From positions 2,924 to 66,923 of the forward strand of contig JACRKE010000037.1 in the NCBI GenBank assembly GCA_016215335.1: a stretch of DNA of 64,000 nt, written 5' to 3'. The stretch comes from Candidatus Vogelbacteria bacterium. Lineage in GTDB: Bacteria; Patescibacteriota; Minisyncoccia; Phycocordibacterales; JACRKE01. This document shows positions 7,669 through 32,628 of this stretch, piece by piece. Position 1 is the first letter of the stretch, and every line of letters begins with the position of its first letter. The notes under the pieces were generated by a model. The model saw only the letters and a program-made list of their open reading frames with translations. It was not told the origin of the DNA and made no database searches. Position numbers and translations under genes: made by a program.

Positions 7669-10074
7669 CTATCGTTTCAGACGAGCGAAAATGTTTTCGT
7701 CCACTTCGCGTCTGTCTTGACCGTAAATCAGACGAGACAACTCCTTTAATTTTTCGCGTACCTCAATGTTACCCCTCGGTGCAAATATGACTTTCGTCAA
7801 AAATGGGCGAGTGGGCACACCCCCGATAAGCATCTTTGTATGTCCAAAAAGATTATCTGAAGTCGTGAGATCGTGCGTGTTGAAAACCGGCTCAAACTGT
7901 TTACCTAGAGTTTCAGTATCCGGCACACCGACCCTGAAAGCGATCATGGAACCGACGTTTCCAAATATGGCATCTCTAATTTTGTCCCCCAATTGATTAA
8001 TGAACTGATTGGCGACTGTAAGACACAGACGATATTTTCTGGCTTCTGAAAGAATGGTTCCAATGGTATCCGTTGTGAAATTCTGGAACTCATCCATGTA
8101 CAGATAGAAATCTCGACGATCCTTCTCTTCCTGATCCACTCTCCCAAACGCAGCCATCATAAGTTTGCCTACAATTATCATACCTAGCAAATTTGCGTTC
8201 ATCTCGCCAATTACACCTTTTGGAAGGTTGACGAAGAGAATTTTGCCTTCATCCATAATCTTCCTGAAATCAAAAGCAGACTTCTGCTGACCGATAATAG
8301 GTCTCATATAGTCGTTGTTTACGAATTGTGTGAATTTGGAAGTTATATAAGTTGTCATGTTGGGAAGAGACCCTTCACCCGTACGCTTGGAAGCATTCTG
8401 CCAAAAACCGACAACAAGGGGATCCTTACAAAGTTCGAGTTTGCGATTACGATATTCATCGTCCGTAAACAGACGCTGGACATCGAGAAGGCTTGCGTGA
8501 GATTTCTCATACTGTGCGCACTCTGTGAGCAACAAAAGTGCGTTTCTGAAATAAAGTTCAAACATTGGACCGCCCGTGGTCTTCAAATCATAAAGCTTGT
8601 CGAAAATTGTGAGCATTTCATTCACCACAAACGATCTTTGCTCCGGGTGGTTGAGATCATACTCAAGCATATTGAGGCCAACAGGACGAGACATGTCGGA
8701 AGGGTCAAATATAATAACGTCTTCTATCCTTTCTTTTGGAACATTCGCAATCATTAGATTAAAGAAGTCAGTATTCGGGTCTATGATGCAGACTCCTTTA
8801 CCATTTCTAATATCCTGTGCGGCAAGGCTCGCGAGAAGTGCGGTCTTTCCGGATCCTGTCTGGCCAATGGAGTAAAGGTGGCGCCTGCGATCTTCGTCTG
8901 TCAGTTTTACCAGTTTTGTGTCGCCCCTGAAAACACTTTCACCTAAAATTATCCCCTCGTTCGGAAGATTCTCCGGAGGAGGGGCCTCCTTGTCCTTCAA
9001 CCATTTAACGTATGGCACCGAACTAGAAGTGGTCGGCAAGTGGAACATACTAGCCATCTCTTCGGTATTTAGAAGCATGGATTCGTCTTTCTTAAACTCT
9101 CTGAATGCGTACGAAAATATAAGCCCCCTCACATCTTTCGGCTTAATACACTCTATTGTATTTCTTTGCGGAGAAGAAAACTGAGCAAAGGCGCTGCCGA
9201 TAGAGAGAAGCAGGTCTTCGGCACGATCTTTCACGGTGGCAGCTGTTATAATTCTCAAATTAACTTCGAACAAAGGCTTCGCAATCTTCTGTTGTAGCGC
9301 CTTAATCGCATCTTCGTCGATTATGATTGGCTTTGTTTTGTCGTCATCTTTCTTGTCGTTATCGGTTGTCATGAGAAAAGATTTACCGATTTTTGCAATG
9401 TCTTTACCTCTTACGAATCTAGTGTCAATAGCCTCTGAAAGTTTCGTGCCCTTCTTTAGACTATTGATTGAACTTAGTATGGACTTTTTCGTAGAATCGG
9501 CACTTGGAATCGCAACCATTTGGAGAGAGGCGCCTTCACCTTCAGTCGCGAGCTTGCTAAATGAGCTCAAAATCGGCCCAAATGTATCGGCTTCAGCCTC
9601 TTTGTATGTACGAATTGGCAAGACGAAGCTATCTTTAAGGCGCATGTACGCCGCGGAAGCCTTGGCCCCAGGCGCAAAAATAGTGTAATCAGAAATCTCC
9701 TCAATCTGCGCATCTAGAAATACTCCCTGTATCTGTCTGGCCGCGAATTCTACGTATTGCTTTGGCACGGCAACGTAGAAAAGGATGTCTTGCGTTTTAT
9801 TCAAAACTGAAACCTCGAAAACAAATGGTTGCTTAATGGCCGCAAGAGCTGCGAAAACTTGTTCCGATAGCATTATCTGCTTTGTGAGTTCATTTTTTTC
9901 TTTAGCGGCCTCATCGCCCTCATTTCTCGGCAACCTGAGAGAGAGCAGTCTCAAATCAAGCATCTCTTGGGCAACCTTCGAACCGCCTTTTTTTGCTTTG
10001 AATATCAGATACGCGACCAGGAGCAACAGTGCGACCGCGACCAAAATATATAAATAGAGCGAAATTTGAGACAT
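7669..10074 (-). CDS. type IV secretion coupling-protein-like ATPase (VirD4/TraG/TraD-like)
   Basis: N-terminal TM helix, Walker A GQTGSGKT, Walker B-plus motif LYMDEFQNF...ARKYRLCLTVANQFINQL typical of TraG/VirD4 (DE...RK...Q..Q), 801 aa. Confidence 0.55.
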   Translation of the reverse strand: MSQISLYLYILVAVALLLLVAYLIFKAKKGGSKVAQEMLDLRLLSLRLPRNEGDEAAKEKNELTKQIMLSEQVFAALAAIKQPFVFEVSVLNKTQDILFYVAVPKQYVEFAARQIQGVFLDAQIEEISDYTIFAPGAKASAAYMRLKDSFVLPIRTYKEAEADTFGPILSSFSKLATEGEGASLQMVAIPSADSTKKSILSSINSLKKGTKLSEAIDTRFVRGKDIAKIGKSFLMTTDNDKKDDDKTKPIIIDEDAIKALQQKIAKPLFEVNLRIITAATVKDRAEDLLLSIGSAFAQFSSPQRNTIECIKPKDVRGLIFSYAFREFKKDESMLLNTEEMASMFHLPTTSSSVPYVKWLKDKEAPPPENLPNEGIILGESVFRGDTKLVKLTDEDRRRHLYSIGQTGSGKTALLASLAAQDIRNGKGVCIIDPNTDFFNLMIANVPKERIEDVIIFDPSDMSRPVGLNMLEYDLNHPEQRSFVVNEMLTIFDKLYDLKTTGGPMFELYFRNALLLLTECAQYEKSHASLLDVQRLFTDDEYRNRKLELCKDPLVVGFWQNASKRTGEGSLPNMTTYITSKFTQFVNNDYMRPIIGQQKSAFDFRKIMDEGKILFVNLPKGVIGEMNANLLGMIIVGKLMMAAFGRVDQEEKDRRDFYLYMDEFQNFTTDTIGTILSEARKYRLCLTVANQFINQLGDKIRDAIFGNVGSMIAFRVGVPDTETLGKQFEPVFNTHDLTTSDNLFGHTKMLIGGVPTRPFLTKVIFAPRGNIEVREKLKELSRLIYGQDRREVDENIFARLKR

Positions 10075-10089: not shown

Positions 10090-10533
10090 TTAGTTAATCA
10101 GATTATGATTTTTGAGCTCATCATAGAGCTTGTCCACGAGGGCATCATGAAATGCGTCCAGTATAAATGGGTCTTCTTCCACAACCTGCTTGATTGTTTG
10201 GCTGATTCCTTTTTCAAAGATAGTGGCCATAAGAGCGTTAATCTTAGCCACAGCATCGTTGTCTAGAGTATCCAAATAAGTCGGTCTCTTGGCTTTAACC
10301 ACGGGTGCGACTTTGGACGAAGCGGACGGGCTAGTTGTGGGCGGGGTGATACTCATTGCCTGGCCCATTACCTCTCCGATTTTTTCAGCCACAACATGAC
10401 GTACCAGCTCTTTTTCCTCGACTATGCCATGTCCAGCTTCAAGCATTCTCCTTTTCTCCTCAATCTGCCTAGACAGCTCGGCTATCTCAGCCTCCACATT
10501 TCCGCGATTTATTTGATCAGTCATAATATCCAT
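10090..10533 (-). CDS. hypothetical coiled-coil protein
   Basis: 147-aa ORF immediately downstream of the VirD4-like gene; no motif. Confidence 0.3.
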   Translation of the reverse strand: MDIMTDQINRGNVEAEIAELSRQIEEKRRMLEAGHGIVEEKELVRHVVAEKIGEVMGQAMSITPPTTSPSASSKVAPVVKAKRPTYLDTLDNDAVAKINALMATIFEKGISQTIKQVVEEDPFILDAFHDALVDKLYDELKNHNLIN

Positions 10534-10647
10534 TTTAGCACGACAAAAGAAGAAAAAGTGTGGACAGCAAAAAAGATTTCCCCAAAATATGCATTGACTA
10601 TGGTTGGAATAAGCAGGACAATTGGTACATATTCATATCTTTTATAA

Positions 10648-12558
10648 ATGACGGACAGACCTACAAATAGTTCCACGGAGTTGGAAGATTGGTACAACCC
10701 GATGAAACATACTCTCGATCAGCTTCGAGAGAGAATGGCTTTTATAAGAAAGCGCCTAAAAGACGTGGGGGAAATGTCCAAATTGGAACTTACTAACAAA
10801 GACGAAATTGAGGCAGATTTAAAAAGAGAACTCGAAGTTTTAGAAAAAGCCGAAAAAATAAGGACGGTTTTTGCATCAGACCCAGGACAGGTGAGAGAGA
10901 CCGTAAGCGACTCCGCAAAGCCCGCCTCACCAAAAAATGCGACAGGTCCATCGGAAAGTGCTAAAGCAAACCCACTCGTCGACGTACCTGAGTACAAGGA
11001 GGAAACAAGTGTATCCGGGATTTCACCTGAATCAGAGGACGGCGATGCCGAAGTACCGGAAGAAATACTAATTAAGCTCGACGAACTTGATTCGGCAGAA
11101 GAGGAGATCGAGACACTGGCGCTAAAAGCCGACAAAATTTCCAATAAAAGTAGCACGAGCGAACTACTGTCTACCGCTGGCCAACTCTCGGACAAAGTCA
11201 CCGCCTATCGAACCCTCACGGCGGCACTAATTGAACTCGCGGACAAATCGCCAAATGTAAGTGAAAGACTCCTCCAGATTATAGAAGACTCGAGCGAGAG
11301 GTCTGCCTTGGTGGAAAAATTGTACACAAAAAGACACGGGAGACTCCTCCTGATACTAACGGAAATTGCCGAGCAGGAATCAAAAAAAGCACCGACAGAA
11401 GAGGCCGCGCCAGAAACTAAAACGCCGAGTGAGCTTTCGAACCAAGAAGCTCTTAGACGACCTGTTGCAGATGTTTTAAAAGGAGAAACGCCCGAGACCG
11501 AGAATCGAACGCAGTCACCTGAAGAAAAAGCGCCCACGGAGGAAGAAAAATTGGAGGTCTTGCTCAAAAGAGTAGGTTTTACCGAACTCGAGGAAAAATT
11601 TGACCCAATCCTTGTGGAAATATCCGGACTTAAGCCGGGAAGTGACGAGAGGAAGGCGAAGCTTATGGATTTTGTGATTGATTACTACGCCAGCCAAGGA
11701 AAAGTGCTAGGAGGAGCTCAAAACGAAGCGGAAAGAGAATTAATAAGCCAACAGTTCAAAATTATTGATGAAGCGTTACAGGAAGTTTGGAATGATAGTT
11801 TTGAAACGAAAGCAAAATCAGAAACAGCGGAGAGCGCGGGACCTGACGATCTAGCTCACCCAACAGAAGAGTTGTCTGCCCTAACACCTGAAGAAAGGTT
11901 AGAGATAGAGAGCGACGCCGAAGAAACAGAAAAGTTTCTCCTGCAACTTATGGAGGAGATGTCTACCGCAATCGAAAATAAGCTGACAAAGACTTGGCAC
12001 GCGGCTGAATCATCGAAAAAACCAGAACCGGAGAAGGATGATTTATATTTAGAATATGAAAAAGCGCTAATAGAGGCAGAATCAGAACTTTCAGCCGCAC
12101 TTTCAGGAGTGGAGCAAAATCCCAAGTTCAGGAAGTATAATGATCTGCTCACTCGAATAAAGTTTGCTCTAGAACAGACCCGGGCATTAAGACTAAGGAT
12201 TGAGGCCTTGAGAGAGAGTAGGGGCAGTGAATCACACAAAAAACCAGAATCAAAAGAGGAGAGGCTCCAAAATTTAAAGACCAGATCTAGCTCGATTTTG
12301 GATCAGTATTTTTTGGCAAAAGTGCCTGAAGCAAAAACTCTGAAACATGACAAAGACTACTGGGAGGAAGTCCTGGCCACACTGATCTCACTTGTTTCAG
12401 CAATTGATGAAATTGACGAAGCAGGGAAAGAGGAAAACGAAGAGATTAGAGCTATCGCGAAATATTATATAGATATAGCCAATTTCCATAAAGCTGTTAT
12501 GGAAGCGGAAAGAAGAAACCGTGAAGACAAAAATACCTACCAAGGTTTGTTGGACTAA
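10648..12558 (+). CDS. large acidic coiled-coil protein
   Basis: 636 aa, strongly E/K/D-rich, heptad-like periodicity, no enzymatic motif. Confidence 0.4.
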   Translation: MTDRPTNSSTELEDWYNPMKHTLDQLRERMAFIRKRLKDVGEMSKLELTNKDEIEADLKRELEVLEKAEKIRTVFASDPGQVRETVSDSAKPASPKNATGPSESAKANPLVDVPEYKEETSVSGISPESEDGDAEVPEEILIKLDELDSAEEEIETLALKADKISNKSSTSELLSTAGQLSDKVTAYRTLTAALIELADKSPNVSERLLQIIEDSSERSALVEKLYTKRHGRLLLILTEIAEQESKKAPTEEAAPETKTPSELSNQEALRRPVADVLKGETPETENRTQSPEEKAPTEEEKLEVLLKRVGFTELEEKFDPILVEISGLKPGSDERKAKLMDFVIDYYASQGKVLGGAQNEAERELISQQFKIIDEALQEVWNDSFETKAKSETAESAGPDDLAHPTEELSALTPEERLEIESDAEETEKFLLQLMEEMSTAIENKLTKTWHAAESSKKPEPEKDDLYLEYEKALIEAESELSAALSGVEQNPKFRKYNDLLTRIKFALEQTRALRLRIEALRESRGSESHKKPESKEERLQNLKTRSSSILDQYFLAKVPEAKTLKHDKDYWEEVLATLISLVSAIDEIDEAGKEENEEIRAIAKYYIDIANFHKAVMEAERRNREDKNTYQGLLD

Positions 12559-12591
12559 GGTGAAATAAATTTAAGCGACTATGAAGCAGTT

Positions 12592-14220
12592 GTGGGATCA
12601 TTGTTAGAGGCTAAAAAAATGGTGGATCTCGCGGATAATGAAATAGACCAAATTGAACGACTGCACAGAGGAGACCTTTCCCCAAAATACAGTGGGCCGG
12701 GCGGAGAAGAAGAACTCCGCGTTGAAATTTACAAAAGAAAGGAGACTCTGAGAAGCATCGTGGAGCGAATCGAGAATAGGCAATTGTGGCTCAAGGGTTT
12801 GGTTGACGAGGCAAAAGAAAAACTGCAAAAAACCCGAGAACAAAAAGAGAAGGCAACTGACGAAGCATTAAAGCAGATGGGCCGCAACAGCGAAGGCCGT
12901 TTAAAAAGGATTGCCGGACACGTTGGAAAAGAGTTCGCAGAAACAATCTCCGATATGGCGCTCGCCGCAAAGAAGGGCATGGAAAAGTTGGGCTGGAAAG
13001 GCCGGGCGGGTGTTTCGCTCGCGTTGGTGGGACTTGCAATGACAGGAAGTCTGCTTGGGGGAACAACTGGTGCCGGACTCGTGGCGGCATCTTCTATGGG
13101 GGGACTCGCAATGCGAATGAGTAGTGCTCTTGCAATGTCTGTTGTGGCGCATAGCGTAAGCGGCAGATTTACAGATGACAAAATTTGGAGGGGGGCAGCC
13201 GCTATCGGTGGCGGAGTGGTATCATTCTTTGTGCTACCCGAGATCGTTAAATACGGCATGCATGAATCAGGCTTAAGCGACTGGTTGGGAAGTCAATTTG
13301 ATCATGTTAGACACTGGTGGAACGGAGATGCTAACTTACCAGATACTCCCATGGTCAGGCCGGCTGGAGTGGGTCCTTCAGTACATCCCGGAACATCGCC
13401 TCATTCAATAACACCAGTTCAGCCCACAGTAACACCCACGCATCCAGTGCCACCGGTTCAATCTGCGCCAGCAAGTGTAATCCCGACTGAAGGTGACTTT
13501 GATATTGAACCTGAAACAGAAATACCGCCCGCACGAGTAGGGCCTAGCGTAGACCCCACACCAGCGCTAACCGCTGAAAAAATCCCAGAAATGCCTCCTC
13601 TGCCACCAAAACCAATAATACAGATTGAACCACCGGCACCTCCGGAGCCGAAAGTAGCTACACCCATCGAAGCTTCTCCAACTACAACTTCTCCCGAACC
13701 AGTAGTTCCCGCAGAACCTGTTCCATTGGCAAAACCTCCGGTGCCCGCCGAGGCTTTGCCTCACACAGCACATCCGGCGCCAGACGTATCTCGTATAGGG
13801 CTCGACAGGCTACACTATCCTGAAACGGCGATCGTGGGCCCAGAGGATAGTTCGTGGAACTATATCCGTGAGACTCTTAAAGCGTCAGGCGTTGGATCTC
13901 CAAGAGAGGTTGAAAATATAACCGGCAATATCGTAAGAAGAATAGAATTTCTTGGCTCGAATCCCAGCGCCTTACACGACACACTTGAAAAAATAGGCAA
14001 GGAAGGCCTAAAAGAATTGAACCTGACTGAAAATTCTTCATACAAAGAAGTCCTACGCGCGCTTGGCTATCAAGGCAATAATCCGTCTCTTAGAAATATT
14101 TACGACGGAGCCAAGGCGCCAAACATAAAAGGCCTCCTTAAGGTTGTGGGCGGAGAGGAGCAACTCAAGCGCTGGGTAATCCACGCGCACGATCTGATCA
14201 TGAGAGCGGGCCTTAAATAG
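12592..14220 (+). CDS. large coiled-coil / glycine-zipper / proline-rich protein (cassette L1)
   Basis: 542 aa. N-terminal coiled-coil; Gly/Ala-rich hydrophobic block (GAGLVAASSMGGLAMRMSSALAMSVVAHSVSG, GxxxG-like); Pro-rich linker (PVQPTVTPTHPVPPVQ); unknown C-terminal domain. Confidence 0.4.
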   Translation: MGSLLEAKKMVDLADNEIDQIERLHRGDLSPKYSGPGGEEELRVEIYKRKETLRSIVERIENRQLWLKGLVDEAKEKLQKTREQKEKATDEALKQMGRNSEGRLKRIAGHVGKEFAETISDMALAAKKGMEKLGWKGRAGVSLALVGLAMTGSLLGGTTGAGLVAASSMGGLAMRMSSALAMSVVAHSVSGRFTDDKIWRGAAAIGGGVVSFFVLPEIVKYGMHESGLSDWLGSQFDHVRHWWNGDANLPDTPMVRPAGVGPSVHPGTSPHSITPVQPTVTPTHPVPPVQSAPASVIPTEGDFDIEPETEIPPARVGPSVDPTPALTAEKIPEMPPLPPKPIIQIEPPAPPEPKVATPIEASPTTTSPEPVVPAEPVPLAKPPVPAEALPHTAHPAPDVSRIGLDRLHYPETAIVGPEDSSWNYIRETLKASGVGSPREVENITGNIVRRIEFLGSNPSALHDTLEKIGKEGLKELNLTENSSYKEVLRALGYQGNNPSLRNIYDGAKAPNIKGLLKVVGGEEQLKRWVIHAHDLIMRAGLK

Positions 14221-14235
14221 TTAACTTTCACCAAA

Positions 14236-14547
14236 ATGTTGCCATCACAAAAACAGATTAGAGAAACTATAATTAAAGAGTTAGACCTTGGACTTTTGTC
14301 GGCCGAAAAACAGACTGAAATAATAACCGGCCTTGCCGAGGAGATAATGAAGCGCGTAATGATAATGGCTATGGAAAGATTGCCGGCGGAGAGGCATGCT
14401 GATTTCAAATCACTTATAGGAGGAGACGAGCTTACGATTGTTAAATTTTTAGATGAAAATATCCCCGAGTTTCAGAAACTGATTGACCACGAAGTGAAGT
14501 CCGCCATAAAGGAATTTCAGGAATTGAGCGGTGCTCGGAAAAAGTAA
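14236..14547 (+). CDS. small acidic alpha-helical protein (cassette S1), paralogue of 15770..16078
   Basis: 103 aa. Aligns with the S2 protein (IIKELDLGLLSAEKQTEIITGL / IIIEQLGIDELPKEDQDEIVAGI; ERLPAERHADF / ERVPKDDRPKF; GGDELTIVKFL / KGDREEIKKFL; KSAIKEFQ / KKCINEFR). Confidence 0.45.
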   Translation: MLPSQKQIRETIIKELDLGLLSAEKQTEIITGLAEEIMKRVMIMAMERLPAERHADFKSLIGGDELTIVKFLDENIPEFQKLIDHEVKSAIKEFQELSGARKK

Positions 14548-14570
14548 CTAATCAAGAAAACAGTCATCAA

Positions 14571-14614
14571 ATGTGAATGCGTGGCAGTTTTGCACCGAGC
14601 ATCCACATTTTTTG
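14571..14614 (+). terminator. intrinsic terminator after S1 gene
   Basis: atgtgaatgc...gcatccacat stem followed by TTTTTT. Confidence 0.5.
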
Positions 14615-14672
14615 CTTGACTAAATATTCACAAAGCACGACAATTGTATGCATAGTTTAACTTGTCTAATAA

Positions 14673-15767
14673 ATGCCCGACGCAACATCTACTTTACAGA
14701 CTGATAATCACGAGGAAGTGCTGAAAGCTCTTGATTCGCGCCTAAAAGAAATAAAGGATCAAGCAGGACTGCATGACAATCTTGTTGCTGGAGCAAATGC
14801 TCTAAACATTAATGTTCCAGTAGCCAGTGTTCCCTTAAATTTACCGACAGTTGAATCTCCAAATATAAACTTAACTCCTAAGACGGCAGAAACCCTTGTC
14901 GAGGCCGAAAAGATAATCACAGAAATTGTACCCCCGTTACCCACGGTACCAATTTTAAATGTCTCCCCAGTTATAGAAAAAGCGCCCATAACGTTACAAC
15001 CGGAGATTTCTTTATCTAAAGCAGTAACAGCGCCACCTAATGTAACCGTAGCTCCTATCGCTAATAAGGAAGAGGTCAGAACCGAAGTTAAAACAGAAAT
15101 AGTACCCCAAAAAATAGAACAAATCGGACCGGTTATTTCTATGCCCTCGATGCGAAAGATTGATATCGCCAATCCCAATGTCGAAGAACACCAAACGGAA
15201 GTCCCCGTCGCTTCAGACTTTGTTGTTCACAAGATACCGGAAGGCAAGTCAATCGTAGTGGTGGAATTTGAAAGAGACATAGCGGCCATTGATGCAAAGT
15301 TAGATCAAATCGAAGAAGCGCAAAACAAAATGTCTGAAGAAGCGACAGCGCTCACAACAAACAAACATTCACTCGAGATTGCTAAAAGCCAAGCGATAAC
15401 TCACGAAAGGACACAAAAAGAAAAACTGTCGAGAAACATTCGAGAACTGGCACAAAATATGGTGGACGCAGTAATGACAAAAGCTCCTCAGAAAGACAGA
15501 CTAAAACTTCAAAAAGAGTACGACGGTCTTTTAGAAGAACTCCGGCTGGTTACTGAAGAGGGAATCACGGACGATTATATGCCAAAGAAAGGTGCGGATG
15601 TTGTCTCGCCTGAAACAAAAATTGATCTAAGTGACAAAACAAAGATCAAGGAAGCTCTACTGAAACAAAGAGAATCAATCGAGTCAGACAGAGATGAGTG
15701 GGTAGGGGACCCCATGAACGGGCTAGTCGCAGCCGCCTTAGTAAGTGATTCCTTGTCTATAAATTAG
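14673..15767 (+). CDS. proline-rich / coiled-coil protein (cassette L2)
   Basis: 364 aa; Pro/Val-rich repeats in the N-terminal half, coiled-coil C-terminal half. Confidence 0.4.
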   Translation: MPDATSTLQTDNHEEVLKALDSRLKEIKDQAGLHDNLVAGANALNINVPVASVPLNLPTVESPNINLTPKTAETLVEAEKIITEIVPPLPTVPILNVSPVIEKAPITLQPEISLSKAVTAPPNVTVAPIANKEEVRTEVKTEIVPQKIEQIGPVISMPSMRKIDIANPNVEEHQTEVPVASDFVVHKIPEGKSIVVVEFERDIAAIDAKLDQIEEAQNKMSEEATALTTNKHSLEIAKSQAITHERTQKEKLSRNIRELAQNMVDAVMTKAPQKDRLKLQKEYDGLLEELRLVTEEGITDDYMPKKGADVVSPETKIDLSDKTKIKEALLKQRESIESDRDEWVGDPMNGLVAAALVSDSLSIN

Positions 15768-15769
15768 AA

Positions 15770-16078
15770 ATGTCAAAAACAAAGAAGGTACTCAAGGACA
15801 TTATTATAGAACAGCTCGGCATAGATGAACTTCCCAAAGAAGATCAGGATGAAATCGTGGCTGGCATAAGCGGTAACGTCCTAAAGTCCATTACTCTCGC
15901 AATCCTAGAAAGGGTACCTAAAGACGACAGGCCCAAATTCGACAAGGTTAAAGAGAAAGGCGACAGAGAAGAGATAAAAAAATTCCTACAAAAATACGTT
16001 TCTGATCTTGAGTCTCTAGTAGAAGAAGAGACCAAGAAATGCATCAATGAGTTCAGGGCAATCGTTGCGTCGCTTTAA
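15770..16078 (+). CDS. small acidic alpha-helical protein (cassette S2), paralogue of 14236..14547
   Basis: 102 aa, starts 3 nt after the L2 stop; ~30% identity to S1 over its full length. Confidence 0.45.
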   Translation: MSKTKKVLKDIIIEQLGIDELPKEDQDEIVAGISGNVLKSITLAILERVPKDDRPKFDKVKEKGDREEIKKFLQKYVSDLESLVEEETKKCINEFRAIVASL

Positions 16079-16101
16079 AGACAAGCCACTGAATTACTAG
16101 C

Positions 16102-16449
16102 TCACAGCCCTGCCATAGCTGGACTTTTCAGAACAGATAGATCTGAAACAAGATCTATTCTTATTTTGTTGAGTGCGTTTAACACCCGCAAAGAGAAATC
16201 AGGTATTTGAGAACCTATTTTTTCCATTACCCCTCTCGGGTCTGGCTTTTCTGATTCAATCTCTTTTTTGACGAGTGCGGCCTGTTCGGGATCCATCGCT
16301 CCAACCATTTCTAGGAAAAGGCGCGCGTTCACCCTGTCGATGAGAGTTTTTTTGAACTGCCAATAGTGCATCGAGTCGTCTTTTTCGTTTACTCCTACTT
16401 CATCTAAGATGTCCACTACAAACTGCTCAATTATATTTATTTGTTCCAT
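16102..16449 (-). CDS. small acidic protein (possible divergent third member of the S family)
   Basis: 115 aa; begins INIIEQFVVDILDEV, resembling the IIIEQLGIDEL start of S2; overlaps the stop of 16437..18287 by 13 nt. Confidence 0.35.
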   Translation of the reverse strand: MEQINIIEQFVVDILDEVGVNEKDDSMHYWQFKKTLIDRVNARLFLEMVGAMDPEQAALVKKEIESEKPDPRGVMEKIGSQIPDFSLRVLNALNKIRIDLVSDLSVLKSPAMAGL

Positions 16450-18287
16450 ATTCTTTTAACGGCACCCCACATTCGCGGAGGCCATGTTACTACTGATGCC
16501 GGATTAATTAATAATTTTAGTGAAGCCACTACTCCGTAACCACTTTCCTTTGCTGCTTGAAACAATTTAGGAAGTTGCGTCATCTCTGCACCGCTCGAGA
16601 CGAATGTACCCACAGTACGTTCAACCTTGGCAACCAAACCCTCGTCAAACATATCATTCACTTTGAGTCTTGCTAAATCTCTACTAACCGCAGTCTCCTC
16701 ATGAATACTATCCAGCATATATGTTGCTGTTTGTAATTCAGCACTTGTGAGTTTCTTCTGGCCTTCAATTAGACTGCCAACCAATTCAGCTCGTTCTCGT
16801 TGTTCAATTTTATTCCTATCGCTCGTTGCGCCGGACATTTTGGTTCGCTCGCGGATTAGACTCACATTAGCTTCATGCGCGGCATGAATAAATCTAAGCC
16901 AGCCAGGGGAAATCGTTTGGTTGCCTATTTTTTCAAACTTAAAGCCTAAATTATCTGGGCTGCTCGCTATTTTTTTCACAGTTTCGAGTATTATGAGTCT
17001 TGGATCAGCCTCTCCATCTTCAAGCGCTCGCGGCTTTTTTGAAAATTCTTCCGCAGCTTCGATCATGCTATCAAGTCTTGAGACATCCGCACGGCTCGCG
17101 TTTTCTTCAATTAAACCTTTTATTCCACCGGCGACGAACATTGCCGCAGCTCCTCCGGCAACTGCACTAGGCCACCACGCCAGTGAGCCCGCAACGTCGG
17201 CAATTGTTTGTATTTTTGAGGCCACCATGCCCGCAATATCTGCTTGCGATCTACTCATCATCTCTGTGGCCTGATTCACCATTCTTGTCGCCCATTCGCC
17301 TATAATAGGCATCTGGCCTGCGGTTTGTCTTAGCGACTCCACAGAAGCAAGTTTGCTTTGAATAAAACTTGCAATATCTTGCAAGTGGGGAGCAGCTAAC
17401 TCTGTAAGCTTTGCGGCTGTAGCATTTACTGCTGCGATAGCACCCGCTTCTCCAACCAAATATCCACCAACGGCAGCGCTTGTACCGGCCACTCCGACAT
17501 TCTTTACGATCTTTCCAACTTTTGTGGTTAATACATACTCAACAATACTCATAACATCCTCACTGCTCGCGGCTTTGTTCATGAGTTTTACTGTCTCTGC
17601 GTCAAACAGTGGTAATCCATCCACCGAAATTTTCTCCAGTTTACCGACCAGATCAATCATGCCTTTCTCGCCATCATAAGTTCGCAGGATATCTTTTTTC
17701 AACCTGTCTATCTTCGCATTATGATCCACCGTTGTCGTAACCAAATCTCTGGGAGCTTGGGAAACCAGTTCAGTTTGTTCTCTCTGTGGCCTAAGAGATT
17801 CAACACCTTGGGGCGCTTCAGCTTTCATTCCTGTTTTTTGCTCTTGTCGAGCTCCTTCCGCCGGATGCTCTCTTTCTACAGCTTTGTTTGTCGCTTTTTC
17901 AAGCTCAATCCTTTGTCTGATCCTGTCCGCCACCGCCTTGAATCTGTCAGACTCTTTCGACACGTCCGGGGAAGAAACAGTTTCGGGAGTTTTTGTGTCT
18001 GATTTTTTTGGAGGCACAACTGAAGCCTCTGCGCTTTGCGCGGGCGCTTCCGATGCTTTTGTTCTCGCTTTTAATCTTTCGGGCCTCTGCTCGCGTAGTC
18101 GGCGTAATTTTGCAAACTCGTCTTCCTCTGCGCTGTCTGCTTTCACATTTGGCTGGTTGGATGCGGATAATATCTTTTTCACAGAGTCGTCTATGCCTGC
18201 CGGCATAGAGTCAGCAGGGGAGCGATCTTTTTCATCTTTTCTGCTTCGGCCACTTTGTTGTGTAAAATCTGGGATGTCTTGGCTCAT
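16437..18287 (-). CDS. large charged protein with glycine-zipper blocks (cassette L0)
   Basis: 616 aa. K/E/R-rich N-terminal third; Gly/Ala-rich hydrophobic blocks (AVGGYLVGEAGAIAAV, SAVAGGAAAMFVAGGIKG). Confidence 0.4.
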   Translation of the reverse strand: MSQDIPDFTQQSGRSRKDEKDRSPADSMPAGIDDSVKKILSASNQPNVKADSAEEDEFAKLRRLREQRPERLKARTKASEAPAQSAEASVVPPKKSDTKTPETVSSPDVSKESDRFKAVADRIRQRIELEKATNKAVEREHPAEGARQEQKTGMKAEAPQGVESLRPQREQTELVSQAPRDLVTTTVDHNAKIDRLKKDILRTYDGEKGMIDLVGKLEKISVDGLPLFDAETVKLMNKAASSEDVMSIVEYVLTTKVGKIVKNVGVAGTSAAVGGYLVGEAGAIAAVNATAAKLTELAAPHLQDIASFIQSKLASVESLRQTAGQMPIIGEWATRMVNQATEMMSRSQADIAGMVASKIQTIADVAGSLAWWPSAVAGGAAAMFVAGGIKGLIEENASRADVSRLDSMIEAAEEFSKKPRALEDGEADPRLIILETVKKIASSPDNLGFKFEKIGNQTISPGWLRFIHAAHEANVSLIRERTKMSGATSDRNKIEQRERAELVGSLIEGQKKLTSAELQTATYMLDSIHEETAVSRDLARLKVNDMFDEGLVAKVERTVGTFVSSGAEMTQLPKLFQAAKESGYGVVASLKLLINPASVVTWPPRMWGAVKRIWNK

Positions 18288-21434: not shown

Positions 21435-22151
21435 ATGAAGAAAGAGCCGCAAAAAATGTGGCCGATATTTGCATTAGGAGCGGTGGTAGTTCTCGCCATC
21501 GTGCTTAAGATTTATACATGGATATTTTCAGGGGAGACCCTCCCGCCGGCTGAATACAAGGCAGTTGTTGGACCAGTGGGGACGAGCACTGGACTTGCTT
21601 TCAATATGGCCAACTGGCAAATCAATCCCTCCACCTCAAGCAACGAGTTTTCTAGTGTTGAGCCGATGAAAAACTTCACCGACAGCGACATTAAGAAAAC
21701 TTCCGATAATGGCAAGACGAGAATAAAAATGTACGCGACAGCTTTGAAATCAGCTCTGGCGCCGTATTCTGACCCCAAGCAGAAAAGTGCACCAGAAATA
21801 CTCATGAAAGTGTACGAAACGAACGACCCCGCCGAGCTTTCGAAACTTCTAGAAGCAAAAAATAATCACCAAACGGCACTGAACTCTCTACTTGCAATTG
21901 AAGTACCATCAGACATTGCGCGTTACCACTTAGTCTTAATCAATTCTGTAGGAAGATTACACTTTCTCGTAAATAATATGCTCAAAGTGGGGGACAAGCC
22001 AGTACTCGCGCTCACGAGCGCTAGAATCTTTGGCTCCGAAGTAAACAGATTCGCTGATGCTCTGACCGTTTTAAATAATGTTTTTTATAACAAAGGTTTA
22101 GTTTTCGAAGAGAAGGACGAGGTTAGGATTTATTTAACCGCCACCAAGTAA
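21435..22151 (+). CDS. hypothetical membrane-anchored protein
   Basis: 238 aa, N-terminal TM (IFALGAVVVLAIVLKIYTWIF), periplasmic-type remainder. Confidence 0.35.
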   Translation: MKKEPQKMWPIFALGAVVVLAIVLKIYTWIFSGETLPPAEYKAVVGPVGTSTGLAFNMANWQINPSTSSNEFSSVEPMKNFTDSDIKKTSDNGKTRIKMYATALKSALAPYSDPKQKSAPEILMKVYETNDPAELSKLLEAKNNHQTALNSLLAIEVPSDIARYHLVLINSVGRLHFLVNNMLKVGDKPVLALTSARIFGSEVNRFADALTVLNNVFYNKGLVFEEKDEVRIYLTATK

Positions 22152-22160
22152 CTTGCAGTT

Positions 22161-25100
22161 ATGAAACCTAAAGAGAATAGCGCAAAAACAGACAGACACC
22201 GAGAGAACGTAAAAAAATACGCTTTGGTGATTTTACTTACGTTCCCCCTACTCGCGCTTTATTTAAAATTTGACACCCCTAAGGTTTCAGCTAGCATAAT
22301 CGAAACCATACAGAATGGAATGACAAACTTTAATCAATCCGTGGGTAACGCAACCGGCGGAGGGAACAGTGCGACAGGAGCTTCGAATTCAGGGGTTGGT
22401 AAAGTATCTTGCTTTGAACAAACCGGTCTACCGATATCTGACAGCGAACTTGCGCCAAACAAGACTCCGAGCGCAACACCGGCAGATGGAGTTAAGGCTA
22501 CTGTTGGCGCAGTAAGAACTATCGGAGAGGGAGTTGCCGCCAGACTAAATCAGGCCGGACCGGGCATTGAAGCACTTGGCATTGTGGCATTTGGCTCTAG
22601 ACCAGCGAGCACAGCTATAGCTATGGGGTTACCACTCACGAATAAAACACTGGCCACAACCCAAGTTTCGACCATAGGAAACTTCGCCAGTCACAGCATA
22701 AGTAATGAGGCTATCAAAGTAGACGATTCAAAACCCATTCTGCCACATAGCTACTATTCCATTATGGAATCTCCGAAAGTTTTAGCGGTCGCAGTTATTT
22801 CTGATACAACAACCATATCGGAACAGATGTCTTTACTGCTTGGCGTAGTTACTGAAATCGGAAAGGAGATAAAAACATTAGGGGGAACTGCTCCGAACAA
22901 GACTGAATTCTTCCAAGGTACACAGATTATTTCGACTTCTCTCGACAATCTTTCTTCAATGTTTAGAGCTCAACCGACATCAGCCAACCGCAATTTAATT
23001 CAAAGTTCTATTACCGCTCTAACAGCATCCCTAAAAGAAACCCAAATCGCTCAAACTGATGTGAACCGCGCCCTTGCCGTAAGTGACTTGGTAATAAGGG
23101 GGGGCAATCTGCTTTCACAGATTGCTCAAGTACCCATTAGGCCGTCATCCGAGGAAATTGAATCCCTGCGTCTTTTCAATGAGAACGGTGCCACATTCAA
23201 TCAAAGCATGCAAAATATTTATGACCTAACAAATGACACTGGCAGTGGAATGCCGCTTGAAAATGCAGCCGTTTTAGCTGAAATCATAAAAATAGTTTCG
23301 GATGAATATTCGGTGGCACTCCAAACCGCAAGCGCCACAGGAAATTACAATAGCCCTGCGTTTCTCGAGGCCGCCAGACGAATGAAGGTTCTGACTGACA
23401 ACCTGACCACACTATCAAACAGGAATGTGAGTGATGATGTGGCCACAGGGGCCACCAATAACTTAATTAACGGGGGAATTATTTCCAGCAACCAAGGACC
23501 ATCAGCCCTAAGCGGTATGCAGGCAATCAATACAATCGCGCAAATGAGCGGTTCAGGGGGAGGAACACAGTCATTTACAAATATAAATAGAGCAATACAA
23601 CAGTCAGGAATGCTTTCATCGGGAGCCGGGGCCCAAATGGGCAACGCACTTCAAGCATTCGAACAAATCCAAAAGATTTTCAGTGGGAAGGGAGGGGCAA
23701 TGGGGATTCTTCAGGGCGTAAAACAGCTTAGTGGCATGTTTAGTGGTGGCTCAAGCTCAATCGGACGAGCGGTTTCCAATATGGGTTCTGGGGCAGGGGG
23801 AGGAGGACTGGGAGCGGGTGGTGGAAACACTCCGCCCCTGAACCCGTCGCCCGAGGAAGTCAATGGCCAAAGAATTGCCGCACGAGATTTGTCCGATAGC
23901 GCTGGCGGAGTGAAGGAAGACGCAGACGATGCCGGCGATAAAGCGGCGGAAGCGCCGGCGGCGGGCGAAGGTACCCCAGAAGCAGTCGACAAAAAAGGAG
24001 CAGAAAAAGAAGGCGGGGCCGGAACCGGTGGCACAAGCAAGAAAACACCTATCGCCGACAATCTGGGTGGTAGTGAAATCGGCGTACCAGTAAACGTGAA
24101 GAAAGGGACACCATATTTCAATATAGTGAAAAGCATTCGAGAGATTAGCTCGCAAGCGTGCGATTATCTCGCAGACATTGACCTTATCCAGCAACTCACG
24201 TGGGACAAGATTCACGTGCAAGACCCTAAAACTGTGAATGAGGTCGCAGAAGCGACCAAGAAAGCCGCCGAAGAATGGGAGAAGACAATGGCAGACAAGC
24301 GTAAATTGCCGGATGGTAATAAGGGCTCTTTCCGTCCAACATATGAACAGTTTGAGAAAGAGAACGTAACAGTAGCGGACGCGGCCGCCTATGACCGAGC
24401 TAAAAAAGCTTTCGAAAAAAACGCGTTCAAGGATGAACTCCAAAAAAAACTTGAAGCTGAAATGAAAAAAAGTGCCGACAAGGACGTAAGCTTTGAAAGC
24501 GTGCTCAAAATTGCGAAAGAGAAGCCGAAAGAAGGCAAAGATCAGAAAACGGCAAACGACTTTATCCAGGCTCACTCGCCCTACTTTGATCCAACCATAC
24601 TTTATGGCAAAGCCATAGAAATGGTAAAGGACACTAGAACAAAGAGGATAGAAGACGCGCAAGCCACATACCAAGGCAACTTGACAGTCCCGCCCCAAAC
24701 AAAATGCGAAGGCGCAGGAAGAAAGGTGAAAAATGCGCAAGGGAAAGAGATCTGTATACATCCTGAAATAGACGGTCCGGCAGGTGCGGTGCTTGCACTT
24801 ACTGATTACAGATGGAGGACTTCACCCATAGAACAGGCGGATTCGACGACCGGAACAAGCCAAAGAGACCACAAGGAAAGAGTGGCCGAGGCTCCAAAAG
24901 AACAGCTACCTGATTCCGGTATGCAGGATGGTGGCGACGACCGTGATCAGGATGGTAATCCCGGTGGAGACAATGACGACGGCGGCGGAAATGACGATGA
25001 CGGAGATGGAGGTGGAGACGATGGAGGAGATGATGGCGGAGGAGGAGGCGGAAATGGCGGGGGCGGTGAAGACTGGCTAAAAAAACTGCTCGAAATTTAT

Positions 25101-25886: not shown

Positions 25887-25887
25887 A

Positions 25888-28347: not shown

Positions 28348-28366
28348 ATCATAAATATACAACATC

Positions 28367-28975: not shown

Positions 28976-29003
28976 GTTGTAGGTGGTAGGTTATAGGTTG
29001 TAG
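28972..29003. repeat. TAGGTTG heptamer array (reverse complement of CAACCTA), about 4.5 units
   Basis: Begins with the TAG stop of 28367..28975. Confidence 0.8.
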
Positions 29004-29076
29004 AACATACGGGCACATCAATACACAAGAGCAAACACAGTGAGCGTAGTATAATAAAATCAATCTTAGATTTAAA

Positions 29077-29484: not shown

Positions 29485-29566
29485 TTACGAATACAGATTT
29501 ATGATTTAGGAATAAATGTACAGCTCTTAAATCTTAAATCTAATCTCCTAAATCCACCTAAAACAA

Positions 29567-30223: not shown

Positions 30224-30227
30224 ACAT

Positions 30228-32084: not shown

Positions 32085-32110
32085 GGGGACAGAAAATACA
32101 CATTGGAAAC

Positions 32111-32168
32111 TTGAAACTGGAAGTTAGAAACTGGAATGGTACATTATTCAAGTTTCCATATTCCAGTT
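32111..32168 (+). repeat. cassette-boundary repeat copy A (AAACTGGAAGTTAGAAACTGGAATGGTACATTATTCAAG)
   Basis: ~40-nt unit sharing ~85% identity with copy B; lies 27 nt after the VirB4 stop. Confidence 0.7.
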
Positions 32169-32626: not shown

Positions 32627-32628
32627 CC

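What the first reader, a model, noticed from the sequence alone, without database searches (positions are those of the whole stretch)
12592..18287. Three tandem 'large glycine-zipper/coiled-coil protein + small acidic ~100-aa paralogue' cassettes next to a VirD4-like coupling ATPase
Three gene pairs are arranged L1-S1 > L2-S2 > < S3-L0:
- 12592..14220 + 14236..14547
- 14673..15767 + 15770..16078
- 16437..18287 + 16102..16449 on the opposite strand

Each small gene starts 3-16 nt after its large partner, or overlaps it by 13 nt.

S1 and S2 are clearly homologous (~30% identity, collinear over the full length). S3 shares their N-terminal IIEQ...DEL block.

The large proteins share no obvious sequence but share architecture: coiled-coil, Gly/Ala-rich GxxxG hydrophobic blocks and Pro-rich linkers.

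The array sits directly downstream of the VirD4/TraG-like gene (7669..10074) and an acidic 636-aa coiled-coil protein.

Two readings are possible:
- Secretion substrates (effector-like proteins or pilus/adhesin subunits) each paired with a small acidic chaperone/adaptor of one family.
- A polymorphic toxin/immunity-like system in which the small protein is the conserved partner.

None of these proteins has a recognisable known domain.
Basis: inference. Interest (0 to 1): 0.8.

Follow-up and report, generated by a model that had tools for sequence, protein, structure and literature searches.

The report
Paired membrane-protein/DUF5663 cassettes in Patescibacteria
Three neighbouring gene pairs in a Candidatus Vogelbacteria chromosome each join a large, fast-evolving protein to a ~100-residue helical protein of the uncharacterised DUF5663 family; this pairing recurs across the ultra-small Patescibacteria, often in one operon with a VirD4-like ATPase, and its function is unknown.

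Summary
All are under purifying selection.

**Small proteins.**
- S1 and S2 are clear paralogues (BLASTP E=5e-15).
- They belong to Pfam DUF5663, a large Patescibacteria family (≥1208 clusters at 50% identity).
- S3 is a very divergent member, detectable only with profiles (hhalign E=8.5e-6; shuffled controls fail).

**Large proteins.**
- They do not all share one architecture.
- L1 belongs to a conserved 'L-core' family: a juxtamembrane coiled coil plus Gly/Ala-rich transmembrane helices.
- L0 resembles that layout without detectable homology.
- L2 has no hydrophobic block.

**Wider pattern.**
- L-core and DUF5663 genes are strictly adjacent: 19 of 19 L-core loci among 80 VirD4-like loci (Fisher p=4e-14).
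- The usual order is L → S → ~145-aa protein → VirD4-like ATPase.
- L–S pairs also occur with no VirD4 nearby.
- Units [A636–L1–S1] and [L2–S2] look like a tandem duplication. They share a promoter-like motif and an N-terminal similarity.

**Interpretation.**
- Best reading: S is a cytoplasmic adaptor or assembly partner of membrane-anchored L proteins, working with the VirD4-like ATPase.
- A toxin–immunity reading is disfavoured.
- The mechanism is inferred, not shown.

The parts
7669..10074 (-). VirD4-like coupling-type ATPase (801 aa): one N-terminal hydrophobic helix, a ~350-aa Patescibacteria-specific N-domain (DUF8128 in relatives) and a P-loop/TrwB-like domain
   Evidence: Pfam T4SS-DNA_transf 32.6 bits (GA 20.1) and TrwB_AAD_bind 27 bits (GA 20.5). 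Relatives are annotated PF26449 DUF8128. 568 relatives found in GTDB genomes.
10090..10533 (-). p147: small acidic protein (pI 5.0), near-invariant upstream partner of the VirD4-like gene. It has an N-terminal coiled coil, a Pro/Ser/Thr linker and the C-terminal motif PFxLDAFHDxLVDKLY.
   Evidence: 65% identical to its positional equivalent in L003 and 32% to that in L007. A profile finds it in 73 of 80 VirD4-like loci; where single-sequence phmmer found it (52 of 80), it lies just upstream of the VirD4-like match on the same strand in nearly all. No Pfam family. Not related to S.
10594..10624 (+). Promoter-like motif TTGACTA-N10-AAGCAnGACAATTG upstream of A636 (copy 1 of 2)
   Evidence: Only two matches in the 64-kb window, 0.01 expected. 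Alignment of the two upstream regions. Sigma-70-type scan.
10648..12558 (+). A636: acidic (pI 4.7) coiled-coil protein with no hydrophobic segment. It probably corresponds to the N-terminal cytoplasmic half of the single ~979-aa L protein of related genomes, now a separate ORF.
   Evidence: Same position as the 979-aa gene of L002/L003. Its N-terminus resembles that of L002_979 (p=0.018). It is separated from the L1 ORF by a single in-frame TAA.
12592..14220 (+). L1: member of the L-core family. It has an N-terminal coiled coil, a juxtamembrane 'KLGWKGR' motif, Gly/Ala-rich hydrophobic helices (139-186, 198-219), a Pro-rich linker (~250-400) and a lineage-specific helical C-terminal domain. 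The start may be GTG 12592 or ATG 12619.
   Evidence: L-core HMM E=2.7e-20 over residues 37-214. hhalign 98%. Hydropathy and GxxxG. C-terminal domain 60% identical in L092.
14236..14547 (+). S1: DUF5663-family protein (103 aa, pI 5.45)
   Evidence: Family HMM E=1e-31. BLASTP against S2 E=5e-15. Pfam DUF5663 positions 1-82 of 84, E=0.022. Orthologue P0006 is 78% identical.
14616..14646 (+). Promoter-like motif TTGACTA-N10-AAGCAnGACAATTG upstream of L2 (copy 2 of 2)
14673..15767 (+). L2: acidic (pI 4.8) 364-aa protein with no hydrophobic block. It has a Pro/Val/Ile-rich middle and a coiled-coil C-half. Its N-terminus resembles that of the ancestral-type L protein.
   Evidence: No transmembrane candidate, Gly 2.5%. 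N-terminal similarity to L002_979: Smith-Waterman 44 against 21±3.9, 0 of 2000 shuffles reach it. 68% identical C-terminus in L001. No L-core match.
15770..16078 (+). S2: DUF5663-family protein (102 aa, pI 5.3), the most conserved of the three. By similarity it is the orthologue of the single S of related genomes.
   Evidence: Family HMM E=1.7e-37. Pfam DUF5663 22.0 bits against GA 23.7. Orthologues carry PF18908. 45% identical to P0007 of L002. AF2 model has five helices, pLDDT 84.9.
16102..16449 (-). S3: highly divergent DUF5663-like protein (115 aa, pI 4.75), overlapping the end of L0 by 13 nt
   Evidence: hhalign of the S3 family against the DUF5663 family: 83%, E=8.5e-6. Shuffled controls fail. 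Almost all sub-threshold HMM hits are DUF5663 members, best E=6e-4. Identical to NCBI HZA95_03475.
16437..18287 (-). L0: 616-aa lineage-restricted protein. It has a charged, disordered N-part (~260 aa) and two Gly/Ala-rich hydrophobic blocks ~100 aa apart (264-287, 365-389), then a helical C-part. This resembles the L layout without detectable homology.
   Evidence: Architecture. Only a self-hit among 5.8 billion proteins. L-core HMM and hhalign negative. C-terminus 91% identical in L001, and the same convergent arrangement is seen in L093.

Best explanation
The region holds three copies of a Patescibacteria-specific two-gene module. Each module is a large, rapidly evolving envelope protein (L) followed by a tightly coupled gene for a small cytoplasmic five-helix protein of the DUF5663 family (S).

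**The canonical L protein (here L1, with A636 as its detached N-terminal half)**
- It has a long charged coiled-coil part in the cytoplasm.
- It has Gly/Ala-rich (glycine-zipper-like) membrane helices.
- It has a Pro-rich stalk and a variable distal domain, probably outside the cell.

**Proposed mechanism**
- S binds the cytoplasmic or juxtamembrane part of its L partner.
- It acts as a dedicated assembly factor or adaptor.
- It connects L to the neighbouring p147 / VirD4-like ATPase pair, with which L-S forms a four-gene operon in many other Patescibacteria.

**Origin of the array**
- The array arose in the Vogelbacteria lineage. One ancestral [promoter-L-S] unit was tandemly duplicated into [A636-L1-S1] and [L2-S2].
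- A third, very divergent pair [L0-S3] was added on the opposite strand.

**What is shown and what is inferred**
- Shown: family membership, gene coupling, synteny, purifying selection and the duplication signatures.
- Inferred: the topology of L, the physical L-S interaction, and the functional link to the ATPase.
For: **S is a large, well-defined family**
- A profile of S1/S2 finds 1208 representative clusters, almost all ~100 aa.
- 71 of 106 representatives hit Pfam DUF5663.

**L and S are tightly coupled**
- 19 of 80 VirD4-like loci contain an L-core protein. All 19 have S directly adjacent, and no locus has L-core without S (Fisher p=3.7e-14).
- All 20 evaluable S genes have a same-strand gene 15-139 nt upstream. 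19 of these are at least 439 aa.
- S-anchored look-ups give the same picture, with gaps of 1-11 nt.

**Link to the ATPase**
- S lies within 10 kb of the VirD4-like gene in 24 of 80 loci, nearly always in the order L, S, ~145-aa protein, VirD4-like.
- p147 is found in 73 of 80 loci.
- L060 has three L-core genes and two S genes flanking VirD4, so multi-cassette arrays recur.

**S is cytoplasmic**
- It has no signal peptide or transmembrane segment.
- Variant P0073 carries an N-terminal transmembrane helix followed by RKRKK and then the S domain.

**L topology**
- The N-part is charged, with no signal peptide.
- There are more Lys/Arg before than after the hydrophobic blocks.

**Duplication**
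- An identical promoter-like motif occurs only upstream of A636 and L2.
- The N-termini of L2 and A636 resemble that of the single L of L002.
- Relatives with one L-S pair have the same flanks: p147-VirD4 on one side, uvrD-ksgA on the other.

**Selection**
- S2 evolves about four times more slowly than the L proteins.
Against: - No direct evidence of L-S, S-p147 or S-ATPase contact.
- 56 of 80 VirD4-like loci, including the 30 closest relatives of this ATPase, have no S within 10 kb.
- L095 and L094 carry L-S next to uvrD with no VirD4-like gene within the available flanks.
- L2 has no membrane segment, and L0 is not detectably homologous to L-core. S partners are thus heterogeneous.
- Published Tn-seq found the VirD4-like gene of a Saccharibacterium dispensable for epibiotic growth. 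Most Patescibacteria T4CP genes are far from virB4 (PMC12102498).
- The ORF calling in the loci was a simple greedy procedure. The family HMMs may miss divergent members.
Confidence: 0.45

Rival explanations
1. Strict secretion reading: the L proteins, especially the soluble acidic ones (L2, A636), are substrates exported through the nearby VirB4-type T4SS (VirB4-like gene at 30228-32084). S proteins are their cognate secretion chaperones, handing them to the VirD4-like coupling protein.
For: - S is small, helical, mildly acidic and cytoplasmic, and is encoded directly after its partner.
- Linkage to a T4CP-like gene is frequent.
- A VirB4-like cluster lies 12-20 kb away, near dnaA.
- L2 and A636 lack membrane segments.
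Against: - Canonical L partners have hydrophobic Gly/Ala-rich helices and look like resident membrane proteins.
- S has no similarity to known T4SS chaperones or adaptors.
- Only 148 of 5713 Patescibacteria T4CP genes lie near virB4 (PMC12102498).
- L-S pairs occur with no VirD4 nearby.
Confidence: 0.2
2. L-S is a cell-envelope module with no functional tie to VirD4, for example a wall-spanning anchor, adhesin or division-associated scaffold with a cytoplasmic partner. On this view its frequent adjacency to p147-VirD4 reflects shared regulation or compact genomes rather than a common machine.
For: - L-S sits between an M23/LysM peptidase and uvrD-ksgA in L095/L096 with no VirD4 within 8 kb. 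The window has the same flanking genes.
- 56 of 80 VirD4-like loci lack S nearby.
- Weak LysM half-motif hits (E~0.1) occur in the post-linker domain of two L proteins.
Against: - The fixed order L, S, p147, VirD4 on one strand with short gaps, in about 15-20 phylogenetically spread loci, is hard to explain without co-function.
- In L060, L-S pairs lie on both sides of VirD4.
Confidence: 0.2
3. Signalling pair: S is a sigma-region-2-like regulatory domain, held at the membrane by L in the manner of an anti-sigma factor. L would be a transmembrane sensor with a variable outer domain.
For: - L has a variable distal domain, and S is translationally coupled to it.
Against: - Foldseek finds nothing.
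- S has no region 4 and no Pfam sigma match.
- The gene order (membrane protein first) and the link to an ATPase are unlike ECF pairs.
Confidence: 0.07
4. Polymorphic toxin / immunity system: the variable L C-termini are toxins and S is the protecting partner.
For: - Large variable protein followed by a small overlapping ORF.
- Several tandem cassettes.
- Fast evolution of L.
Against: - S is one conserved family across non-homologous L C-termini, the opposite of immunity proteins.
- No toxin, LXG, Rhs or CDI domain in 11 L proteins.
- No PADLOC or PHROG support: the single LeoBC hit was not reproduced in 10 other L proteins.
- S and the module were absent from the phage and plasmid collections.
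Confidence: 0.05

Closest known systems
Pfam DUF5663 (PF18908), an uncharacterised ~84-residue family
   Same: - S1 and S2 align to the whole model (positions 1-83 of 84).
- Their orthologues and 71 of 106 family representatives are Pfam hits.
- S3 is a remote relative.
   Different: - The family has no described function, structure or context. No paper in the searchable library mentions it.
- The coupling to L-core proteins and to p147/VirD4 is not part of any annotation I could find.
Patescibacteria T4SS and its orphan VirD4-like coupling proteins (Quinonero-Coronel et al. 2025, PMC12102498; Wang et al. 2023, PMC10633639)
   Same: - Same phylum, and a chromosomal location near dnaA.
- A VirB4-like cluster in the same window.
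- A VirD4-like ATPase of the type counted there.
   Different: - Those studies catalogue VirB1/2/3/4/6/8, TrsD and T4CP.
- In the passages I read or term-searched they do not mention an L, DUF5663 or p147-like partner of the T4CP. They leave open that the T4CP was 'exapted for other functions'.
T4SS coupling-protein adaptors and substrate chaperones (DotL-IcmS/IcmW/LvgA in Legionella; VirE1-VirE2 in Agrobacterium). Comparison drawn from general knowledge.
   Same: Small, acidic, cytoplasmic helical proteins encoded beside their client or the coupling ATPase.
   Different: - No sequence or fold similarity.
- The clients here are mostly membrane proteins.
- The small protein is one family serving non-homologous clients.
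Type VIIb secretion LXG toxin / Lap partner / WXG100 systems with the FtsK-like EssC ATPase. Comparison drawn from general knowledge.
   Same: A monoderm envelope, an FtsK/HerA-superfamily ATPase, ~100-aa helical partner proteins and large polymorphic proteins in tandem cassettes.
   Different: - S is predicted as a five-helix bundle, not a WXG helical hairpin.
- There is no LXG domain.
- S lies downstream of, not upstream of, the large gene.
- The only trace is a DUF3130 hit of A636 at E=0.012, which is not significant.
Glycine-zipper membrane proteins
   Same: L1 and L0 carry GxxxG and small-xxx-small runs in hydrophobic segments.
   Different: - No match to any Pfam glycine-zipper family.
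- The L-core adds a conserved juxtamembrane coiled coil and a basic motif not found in those families.

Membership tests
Pfam DUF5663 (PF18908) | Full-length match to the family profile at or above the gathering score (23.7 bits) | tested here: inconclusive
   - S2 scores 22.0 bits and S1 15.8 bits, both end to end but just under the threshold of the local PF18908.5 copy.
- S2 orthologues P0001 and P0002 carry a precomputed PF18908.7 hit.
Pfam DUF5663 (PF18908) | Reciprocal family membership: relatives retrieved with S1/S2 are themselves DUF5663 proteins | tested here: met
   - 1208 representatives at E<=1e-3.
- 71 of 106 aligned representatives hit DUF5663 at E<=1e-3, and no competing family appears.
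Pfam DUF5663 (PF18908) | S3 belongs to the same family | tested here: met
   - Pairwise comparison is not significant, and a single sequence against the profile gives P=0.005.
- A 4-sequence S3 profile gives hhalign 83%, E=8.5e-6, over 77 collinear columns.
- Shuffled and reversed controls score at most 15.1, against 32.6.
- This is remote homology, not a Pfam-threshold match.
L-core family (defined here) | Match to the iterated HMM: juxtamembrane coiled coil, basic motif and Gly/Ala-rich helices | tested here: met
   L1 residues 37-214 give E=2.7e-20 and hhalign 98%.
L-core family (defined here) | The same match for L0, L2 and A636 | tested here: not met
   - No HMM hit at E<=10.
- hhalign probability below 1%.
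- L0 shares only the layout of hydrophobic blocks.
Type IV coupling protein (VirD4/TraG/TrwB) | P-loop NTPase domain plus all-alpha domain matching the T4CP profiles | tested here: met
   - T4SS-DNA_transf 32.6 bits (GA 20.1) and TrwB_AAD_bind 27 bits (GA 20.5).
- NCBIfam T4CP models match only far below their cut-offs.
Type IV coupling protein (VirD4/TraG/TrwB) | Encoded with a relaxase or within a VirB4 T4SS cluster | tested here: inconclusive
   - A VirB4-like gene lies 20 kb away in the window.
- No relaxase family turned up among the ORFs scanned.
- Most loci in other genomes show no conserved T4SS neighbours.
T4SS secretion chaperone / adaptor (VirE1, IcmS/IcmW and similar) | Sequence or fold similarity to a known chaperone or adaptor | tested here: not met
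T4SS secretion chaperone / adaptor (VirE1, IcmS/IcmW and similar) | Physical binding to the client and to the coupling ATPase | not testable with these tools
Only gene order supports this feature.
Polymorphic toxin / immunity pair | A recognisable toxin domain at the variable C-terminus of the large protein | tested here: not met
   No Pfam domain in L1, L2 or L0, nor in eight other L proteins. No PDB sequence match.
Polymorphic toxin / immunity pair | The small downstream protein co-varies with the toxin domain, with a different immunity family per toxin | tested here: not met
   One conserved S family follows non-homologous L C-termini.
WXG100 / T7SS small substrates | A ~100-aa helix-turn-helix hairpin with a central WXG motif | tested here: not met
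   The AF2 model has five helices. The S-family consensus has no WXG motif. No Pfam WXG100 hit.
ECF sigma factor | Sigma region 2 plus region 4 | tested here: not met

The most novel reading that the evidence does not exclude
L, DUF5663, p147 and the DUF8128-type VirD4-like ATPase together form an undescribed, self-contained envelope machine of Patescibacteria that works independently of the VirB4 T4SS. In this reading a glycine-zipper L oligomer is the membrane conduit or wall-spanning, host-facing stalk. The hexameric ATPase powers it, and S and p147 act as coupling subunits. The tandem, fast-evolving L-S cassettes would then give host-range or antigenic variation at the episymbiont-host interface.
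Probability: 0.2. Interest if true: 0.85.

Novelty: new variant of a known kind. Interest (0 to 1): 0.55.

Why it matters
Patescibacteria make up a large share of uncultivated bacterial diversity and live attached to host cells.

- **An unexplained ATPase.** Their VirD4-like ATPases are abundant (about two per genome in PMC12102498). They are usually unlinked from the VirB4 secretion genes, and their role is unexplained.
- **Candidate partners.** This analysis gives that orphan ATPase a set of conserved gene partners:
  - a near-invariant ~145-aa protein;
  - in many lineages, a membrane protein of a new 'L-core' family;
  - a DUF5663 protein.
- **First testable context for a DUF.** It gives a large domain-of-unknown-function family (≥1200 clusters at 50% identity) a first testable context.
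- **Possible biological role.** If the L proteins are surface-exposed and the cassettes diversify by duplication, they are candidates for host recognition or attachment factors.
- **Caveat.** Even if the ATPase link fails, the strict L-core/DUF5663 coupling still defines a protein pair to test.

Tried and rejected
**Searches and predictions that gave nothing**
- Degenerate-pattern search of genomes with S-family alignments failed: no stretch was conserved enough. I anchored on the VirD4-like protein instead.
- The L0 homologue search returned only L0 itself.
- Metagenome scans with the S3 family found nothing. With close S2 relatives they found only the already known L002-type locus.
- AF2 of the L1 C-terminal domain without an alignment gave pLDDT 45.5, which is unusable.
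The afdb50 library was not available.
- PDB sequence searches for L1, L0 and the S profile found nothing significant.
- The VirD4-like protein was not found in IMG/VR viral contigs, and S was not found in the phage or plasmid collections. A mobile-element origin therefore has no support.

**Leads considered and rejected**
- The PADLOC 'LeoBC' (dynamin-like) hit of L1 at E=3e-5 was not reproduced in 10 other L proteins. One of those hit the SMC-like LmuB instead, so I regard it as coiled-coil/transmembrane noise.
- LysM appeared only as half-motif hits at E~0.1 in the post-linker region of two L proteins, and not in L1. I keep it as a lead only.
- There is no S-p147 fusion among the long S-family proteins, and no S/p147 homology.
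- Neighbours beyond the four-gene module are not conserved between loci.
- There are no DNA tandem repeats inside 12.5-18.3 kb.

Full report
**Source and setting.** S3 is identical to NCBI protein HZA95_03475 of a Candidatus Vogelbacteria MAG. The window is therefore a chromosomal segment from a member of the Patescibacteria (CPR). It carries ordinary housekeeping genes:
- comM-like, an M23/LysM peptidase, uvrD, ksgA, yidC, dnaA and dnaN;
- a class A PBP, tyrS/trpS-type synthetase, ruvB, a T2SS/T4P ATPase and polA.

A VirB4-like gene lies at 30228-32084. It sits among unannotated large ORFs a few kb from dnaA, the arrangement described for Patescibacteria T4SS genes (PMC12102498).

**Checking the observation.** All six ORFs are present as described.
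- Against close relatives from metagenomes (L001, L092, L093), every gene shows low non-synonymous change against saturated synonymous change: pN 0.05-0.22, pS 0.65-0.86. They are real genes.
- S2 is the slowest-evolving (pN 0.048). The L proteins are about four times faster.
- S1 and S2 are paralogues: 27.7% identity over 101 aa, E=5e-15.
- S3 is not similar to either pairwise (E 0.4-2).
- The small proteins are mildly acidic, pI 4.75-5.45.
- L1 and L0 have Gly/Ala-rich hydrophobic blocks with GxxxG motifs. L2 has none. The claim of a shared L architecture therefore holds for two of three.

**What the small proteins are.**
- S1 and S2 match Pfam DUF5663 over the whole model, just under threshold. 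S2 orthologues carry the Pfam hit.
- An exhaustive profile search with S1/S2 found 1208 representative clusters at E<=1e-3, nearly all ~100 aa. 71 of 106 aligned representatives hit DUF5663 and nothing else of note.
- The consensus is I..ELGI..LP.E.Q.EI....GE..LK......L..LP...R.EF..L...GD......FL...IP........E......EFK. It has no catalytic-looking pattern.
- An AF2 model of S2 built with this alignment is a five-helix bundle, pLDDT 84.9.
- One family variant has an N-terminal transmembrane helix followed by RKRKK and then the S domain (P0073). That places the domain on the cytoplasmic side.

**S3.**
- The family HMM ranks S3 as the best non-member ORF of the window, but at E=0.14.
- A more divergent S3 homologue was recovered from L093: 34% identical, in the same convergent position after an S2 orthologue.
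- With it, a 4-sequence S3 profile aligns to the DUF5663 family over 77 collinear columns: hhalign 83%, E=8.5e-6.
- Almost all its sub-threshold HMM hits in a 6286-sequence test set are DUF5663 members, best E=6e-4.
- Thirty column-shuffled controls and a reversed control reach at most score 15.1, against 32.6.
- I accept S3 as a remote family member.

**What the large proteins are.**
- No Pfam, NCBIfam or PDB relatives exist for L1, L2, L0 or A636.
- Starting from the large protein that precedes S in a distant genome (L007), an iterated HMM defined an 'L-core'. It is a coiled coil, then a basic juxtamembrane motif (Y.KL.WK.K-like), then Gly/Ala-rich helices.
- The L-core HMM matches L1 residues 37-214 at E=2.7e-20, and also the single 979-aa L of the related genome L002. 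It does not match L0, L2 or A636.
- Across 26 S-associated large proteins the layout is consistent:
  - a 170-720-aa charged N-part with no signal peptide;
  - one or two hydrophobic blocks, often ~100 aa apart;
  - more Lys/Arg before than after those blocks;
  - a long, non-conserved C-part.
- This suggests N-in topology with the variable part outside. That is an inference.
- L0 fits the layout but not the HMM, and has no relatives beyond its own lineage.
- The C-terminal domain of L1 is lineage-specific and could not be modelled.

**Conservation of the pairing.** I fetched 80 loci around relatives of the VirD4-like ATPase, from one genome per species.
- A p147-like gene is present in 73 of 80 loci by profile search. 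Where single-sequence phmmer found it (52 of 80), it lies just upstream of the ATPase match on the same strand in nearly all.
- S occurs within 10 kb in 24 of 80 loci. It is almost always in the order L, S, p147-like, VirD4-like on one strand, with L-S gaps of 15-139 nt.
- L-core proteins occur in 19 loci, and S is directly adjacent in all 19. No locus has L-core without S (Fisher p=3.7e-14).
- One locus (L060) has three L-core genes and two S genes around VirD4. Multi-cassette arrays are therefore not unique to this window.
- Look-ups anchored on S gave the same pairing, with gaps of 1-11 nt. Twice the L-core gene followed S instead (L006 and L058).
- The link to VirD4 is not obligatory.
  - The 30 closest VirD4 relatives keep p147 but have no S within 10 kb.
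  - L095/L096 and L094 have L-S directly before uvrD, as in this window, with no VirD4-like gene in the available flanks.

**Origin of the three cassettes.**
- A related genome (L002/L003; VirD4 68% identical, S 45% identical to S2) has the same flanking genes but a single 979-aa L plus one S.
- In the window, A636 and L1 occupy that position. They lie in the same frame, separated by one TAA. Together they reproduce the 979-aa layout, so A636 is best read as the detached N-terminal half of L.
- A 20-specified-base promoter-like motif (TTGACTA-N10-AAGCAnGACAATTG) occurs only twice in 64 kb, upstream of A636 and of L2. The expected count is 0.01.
- The N-terminus of L2 resembles that of L002's L: score 44 against 21±3.9, with 0 of 2000 shuffles reaching it. 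A636 does so more weakly, p=0.018.
- So [A636-L1-S1] and [L2-S2] look like tandem duplicates of one [promoter-L-S] unit. After duplication L2 lost the membrane part.
- The S2 / S3-L0 convergent arrangement is conserved in relatives down to 71% S2 identity.

**Mechanism.**
- What is shown is a strict gene pair, with frequent operonic linkage to p147 and a T4CP-like ATPase.
- The most economical reading is that S is a cytoplasmic partner (adaptor or assembly factor) of L-type envelope proteins, acting with the ATPase pair. I hold this at about 0.45.
- Rivals:
  - A strict 'exported effector plus chaperone' model (0.2) fits the soluble L2 and A636 better than the membrane-anchored L-core proteins.
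  - An envelope module unrelated to VirD4 (0.2) fits the loci that lack VirD4.
  - A sigma/anti-sigma-like signalling pair (0.07) rests only on weak fold resemblance.
  - Toxin/immunity (0.05) is contradicted, because the small protein is the conserved partner and no toxin domain was found.
- The literature I could search does not mention DUF5663 or DUF8128.
  - The main survey notes that 5713 VirD4-like genes in 2918 Patescibacteria genomes are mostly far from virB4.
  - It notes that the gene is dispensable in the one species tested.
  - It leaves open that these genes are exapted for other functions.
  - Wang et al. saw no recognisable coupling protein in the essential T4SS cluster.

**Verdict.**
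- The finding is real and non-random, with the corrections above.
- The small proteins are new members of a known but uncharacterised family.
- The conserved L-core/DUF5663(/p147/VirD4-like) module appears to be undescribed.
- Its function remains inferred from context only.

Noticed in passing
window 12556-12594: A636 ends with TAA at 12556-12558. The open frame that contains L1 starts at the very next codon in the same frame, with no other stop. It could be a recently split gene, an assembly error or coincidence (one chance in three). An AAGGTG lies across the stop, and a GAGG lies 8 nt before the alternative start ATG 12619.
   Followed up: partly
window 10594-10624 and 14616-14646: Two copies of TTGACTA-N10-AAGCAnGACAATTG, each about 25-30 nt before a start codon of a protein beginning M-(T/P)-D. 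There is no other copy in the window and none in the 93 loci fetched up to that point.
   Followed up: yes
window 10090-10533 (-) and 73 of 80 VirD4-like loci: The p147 family is a near-universal upstream partner of the Patescibacteria VirD4-like ATPase. It has a nearly invariant C-terminal motif (PF.LDAFHD.LVDKLY; His129 invariant in 32 sequences) and no Pfam family. It may be more informative about the ATPase than the L-S pair.
   Followed up: partly
window 7669-10074 (-): The VirD4-like protein matches PHROG family phrog_5156 (unknown function) over nearly its full length (E=8.5e-83), and the PADLOC model mad8 (E=1e-13). tblastn finds only distant (20-25% identity) relatives in large Bacillus phages such as phage G and SPO1-like phages.
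   Followed up: partly
L060 2197-14911: A locus from a MAG labelled Micavibrio sp. has three L-core genes (796, 1479 and 629 aa) and two DUF5663 genes flanking the p147-like/VirD4-like pair. This is an independent multi-cassette array.
   Followed up: partly
proteins P0083, P0073, P0063, P0146 (S-family representatives): Variants of the S family:
- a tandem double-DUF5663 protein (P0083, 203 aa);
- a membrane-anchored form (P0073);
- forms with long acidic/Pro-rich C-terminal tails ending in ...QPAY (P0063, P0146).
   Followed up: no
window 21435-35905: A run of same-strand ORFs (238, 1241, 819, 202, 218, 618 [VirB4-like], 171, 342, 303 and 441 aa). Only the VirB4-like one has a convincing Pfam domain. 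The 238-aa and 1241-aa genes are conserved in the related locus L002 (38% and 30% identity). This is presumably the T4SS cluster, lying next to yidC, dnaA and dnaN.
   Followed up: partly
window 52000-53500: The highest G+C stretch of the window (0.548 against about 0.45). It has overlapping long ORFs on both strands (398 aa on + and 225 aa on -), no Pfam match and no Rfam match. It lies just upstream of a 1314-aa DUF11/fn3 surface-type protein.
   Followed up: no
L095 7500-7999, L007 ~7950-8250, L094 ~180-420: The post-linker domains of several L proteins begin with a 'G-[DNE]-[ST]-x-W/Y' motif and end with a 'PGQ.I.L'-like motif around a ~40-residue insert. Pfam LysM appears as a half-motif hit at E~0.1 for two of them. 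This may be a split LysM-like wall-binding domain. It is not significant and is not seen in L1.
   Followed up: partly
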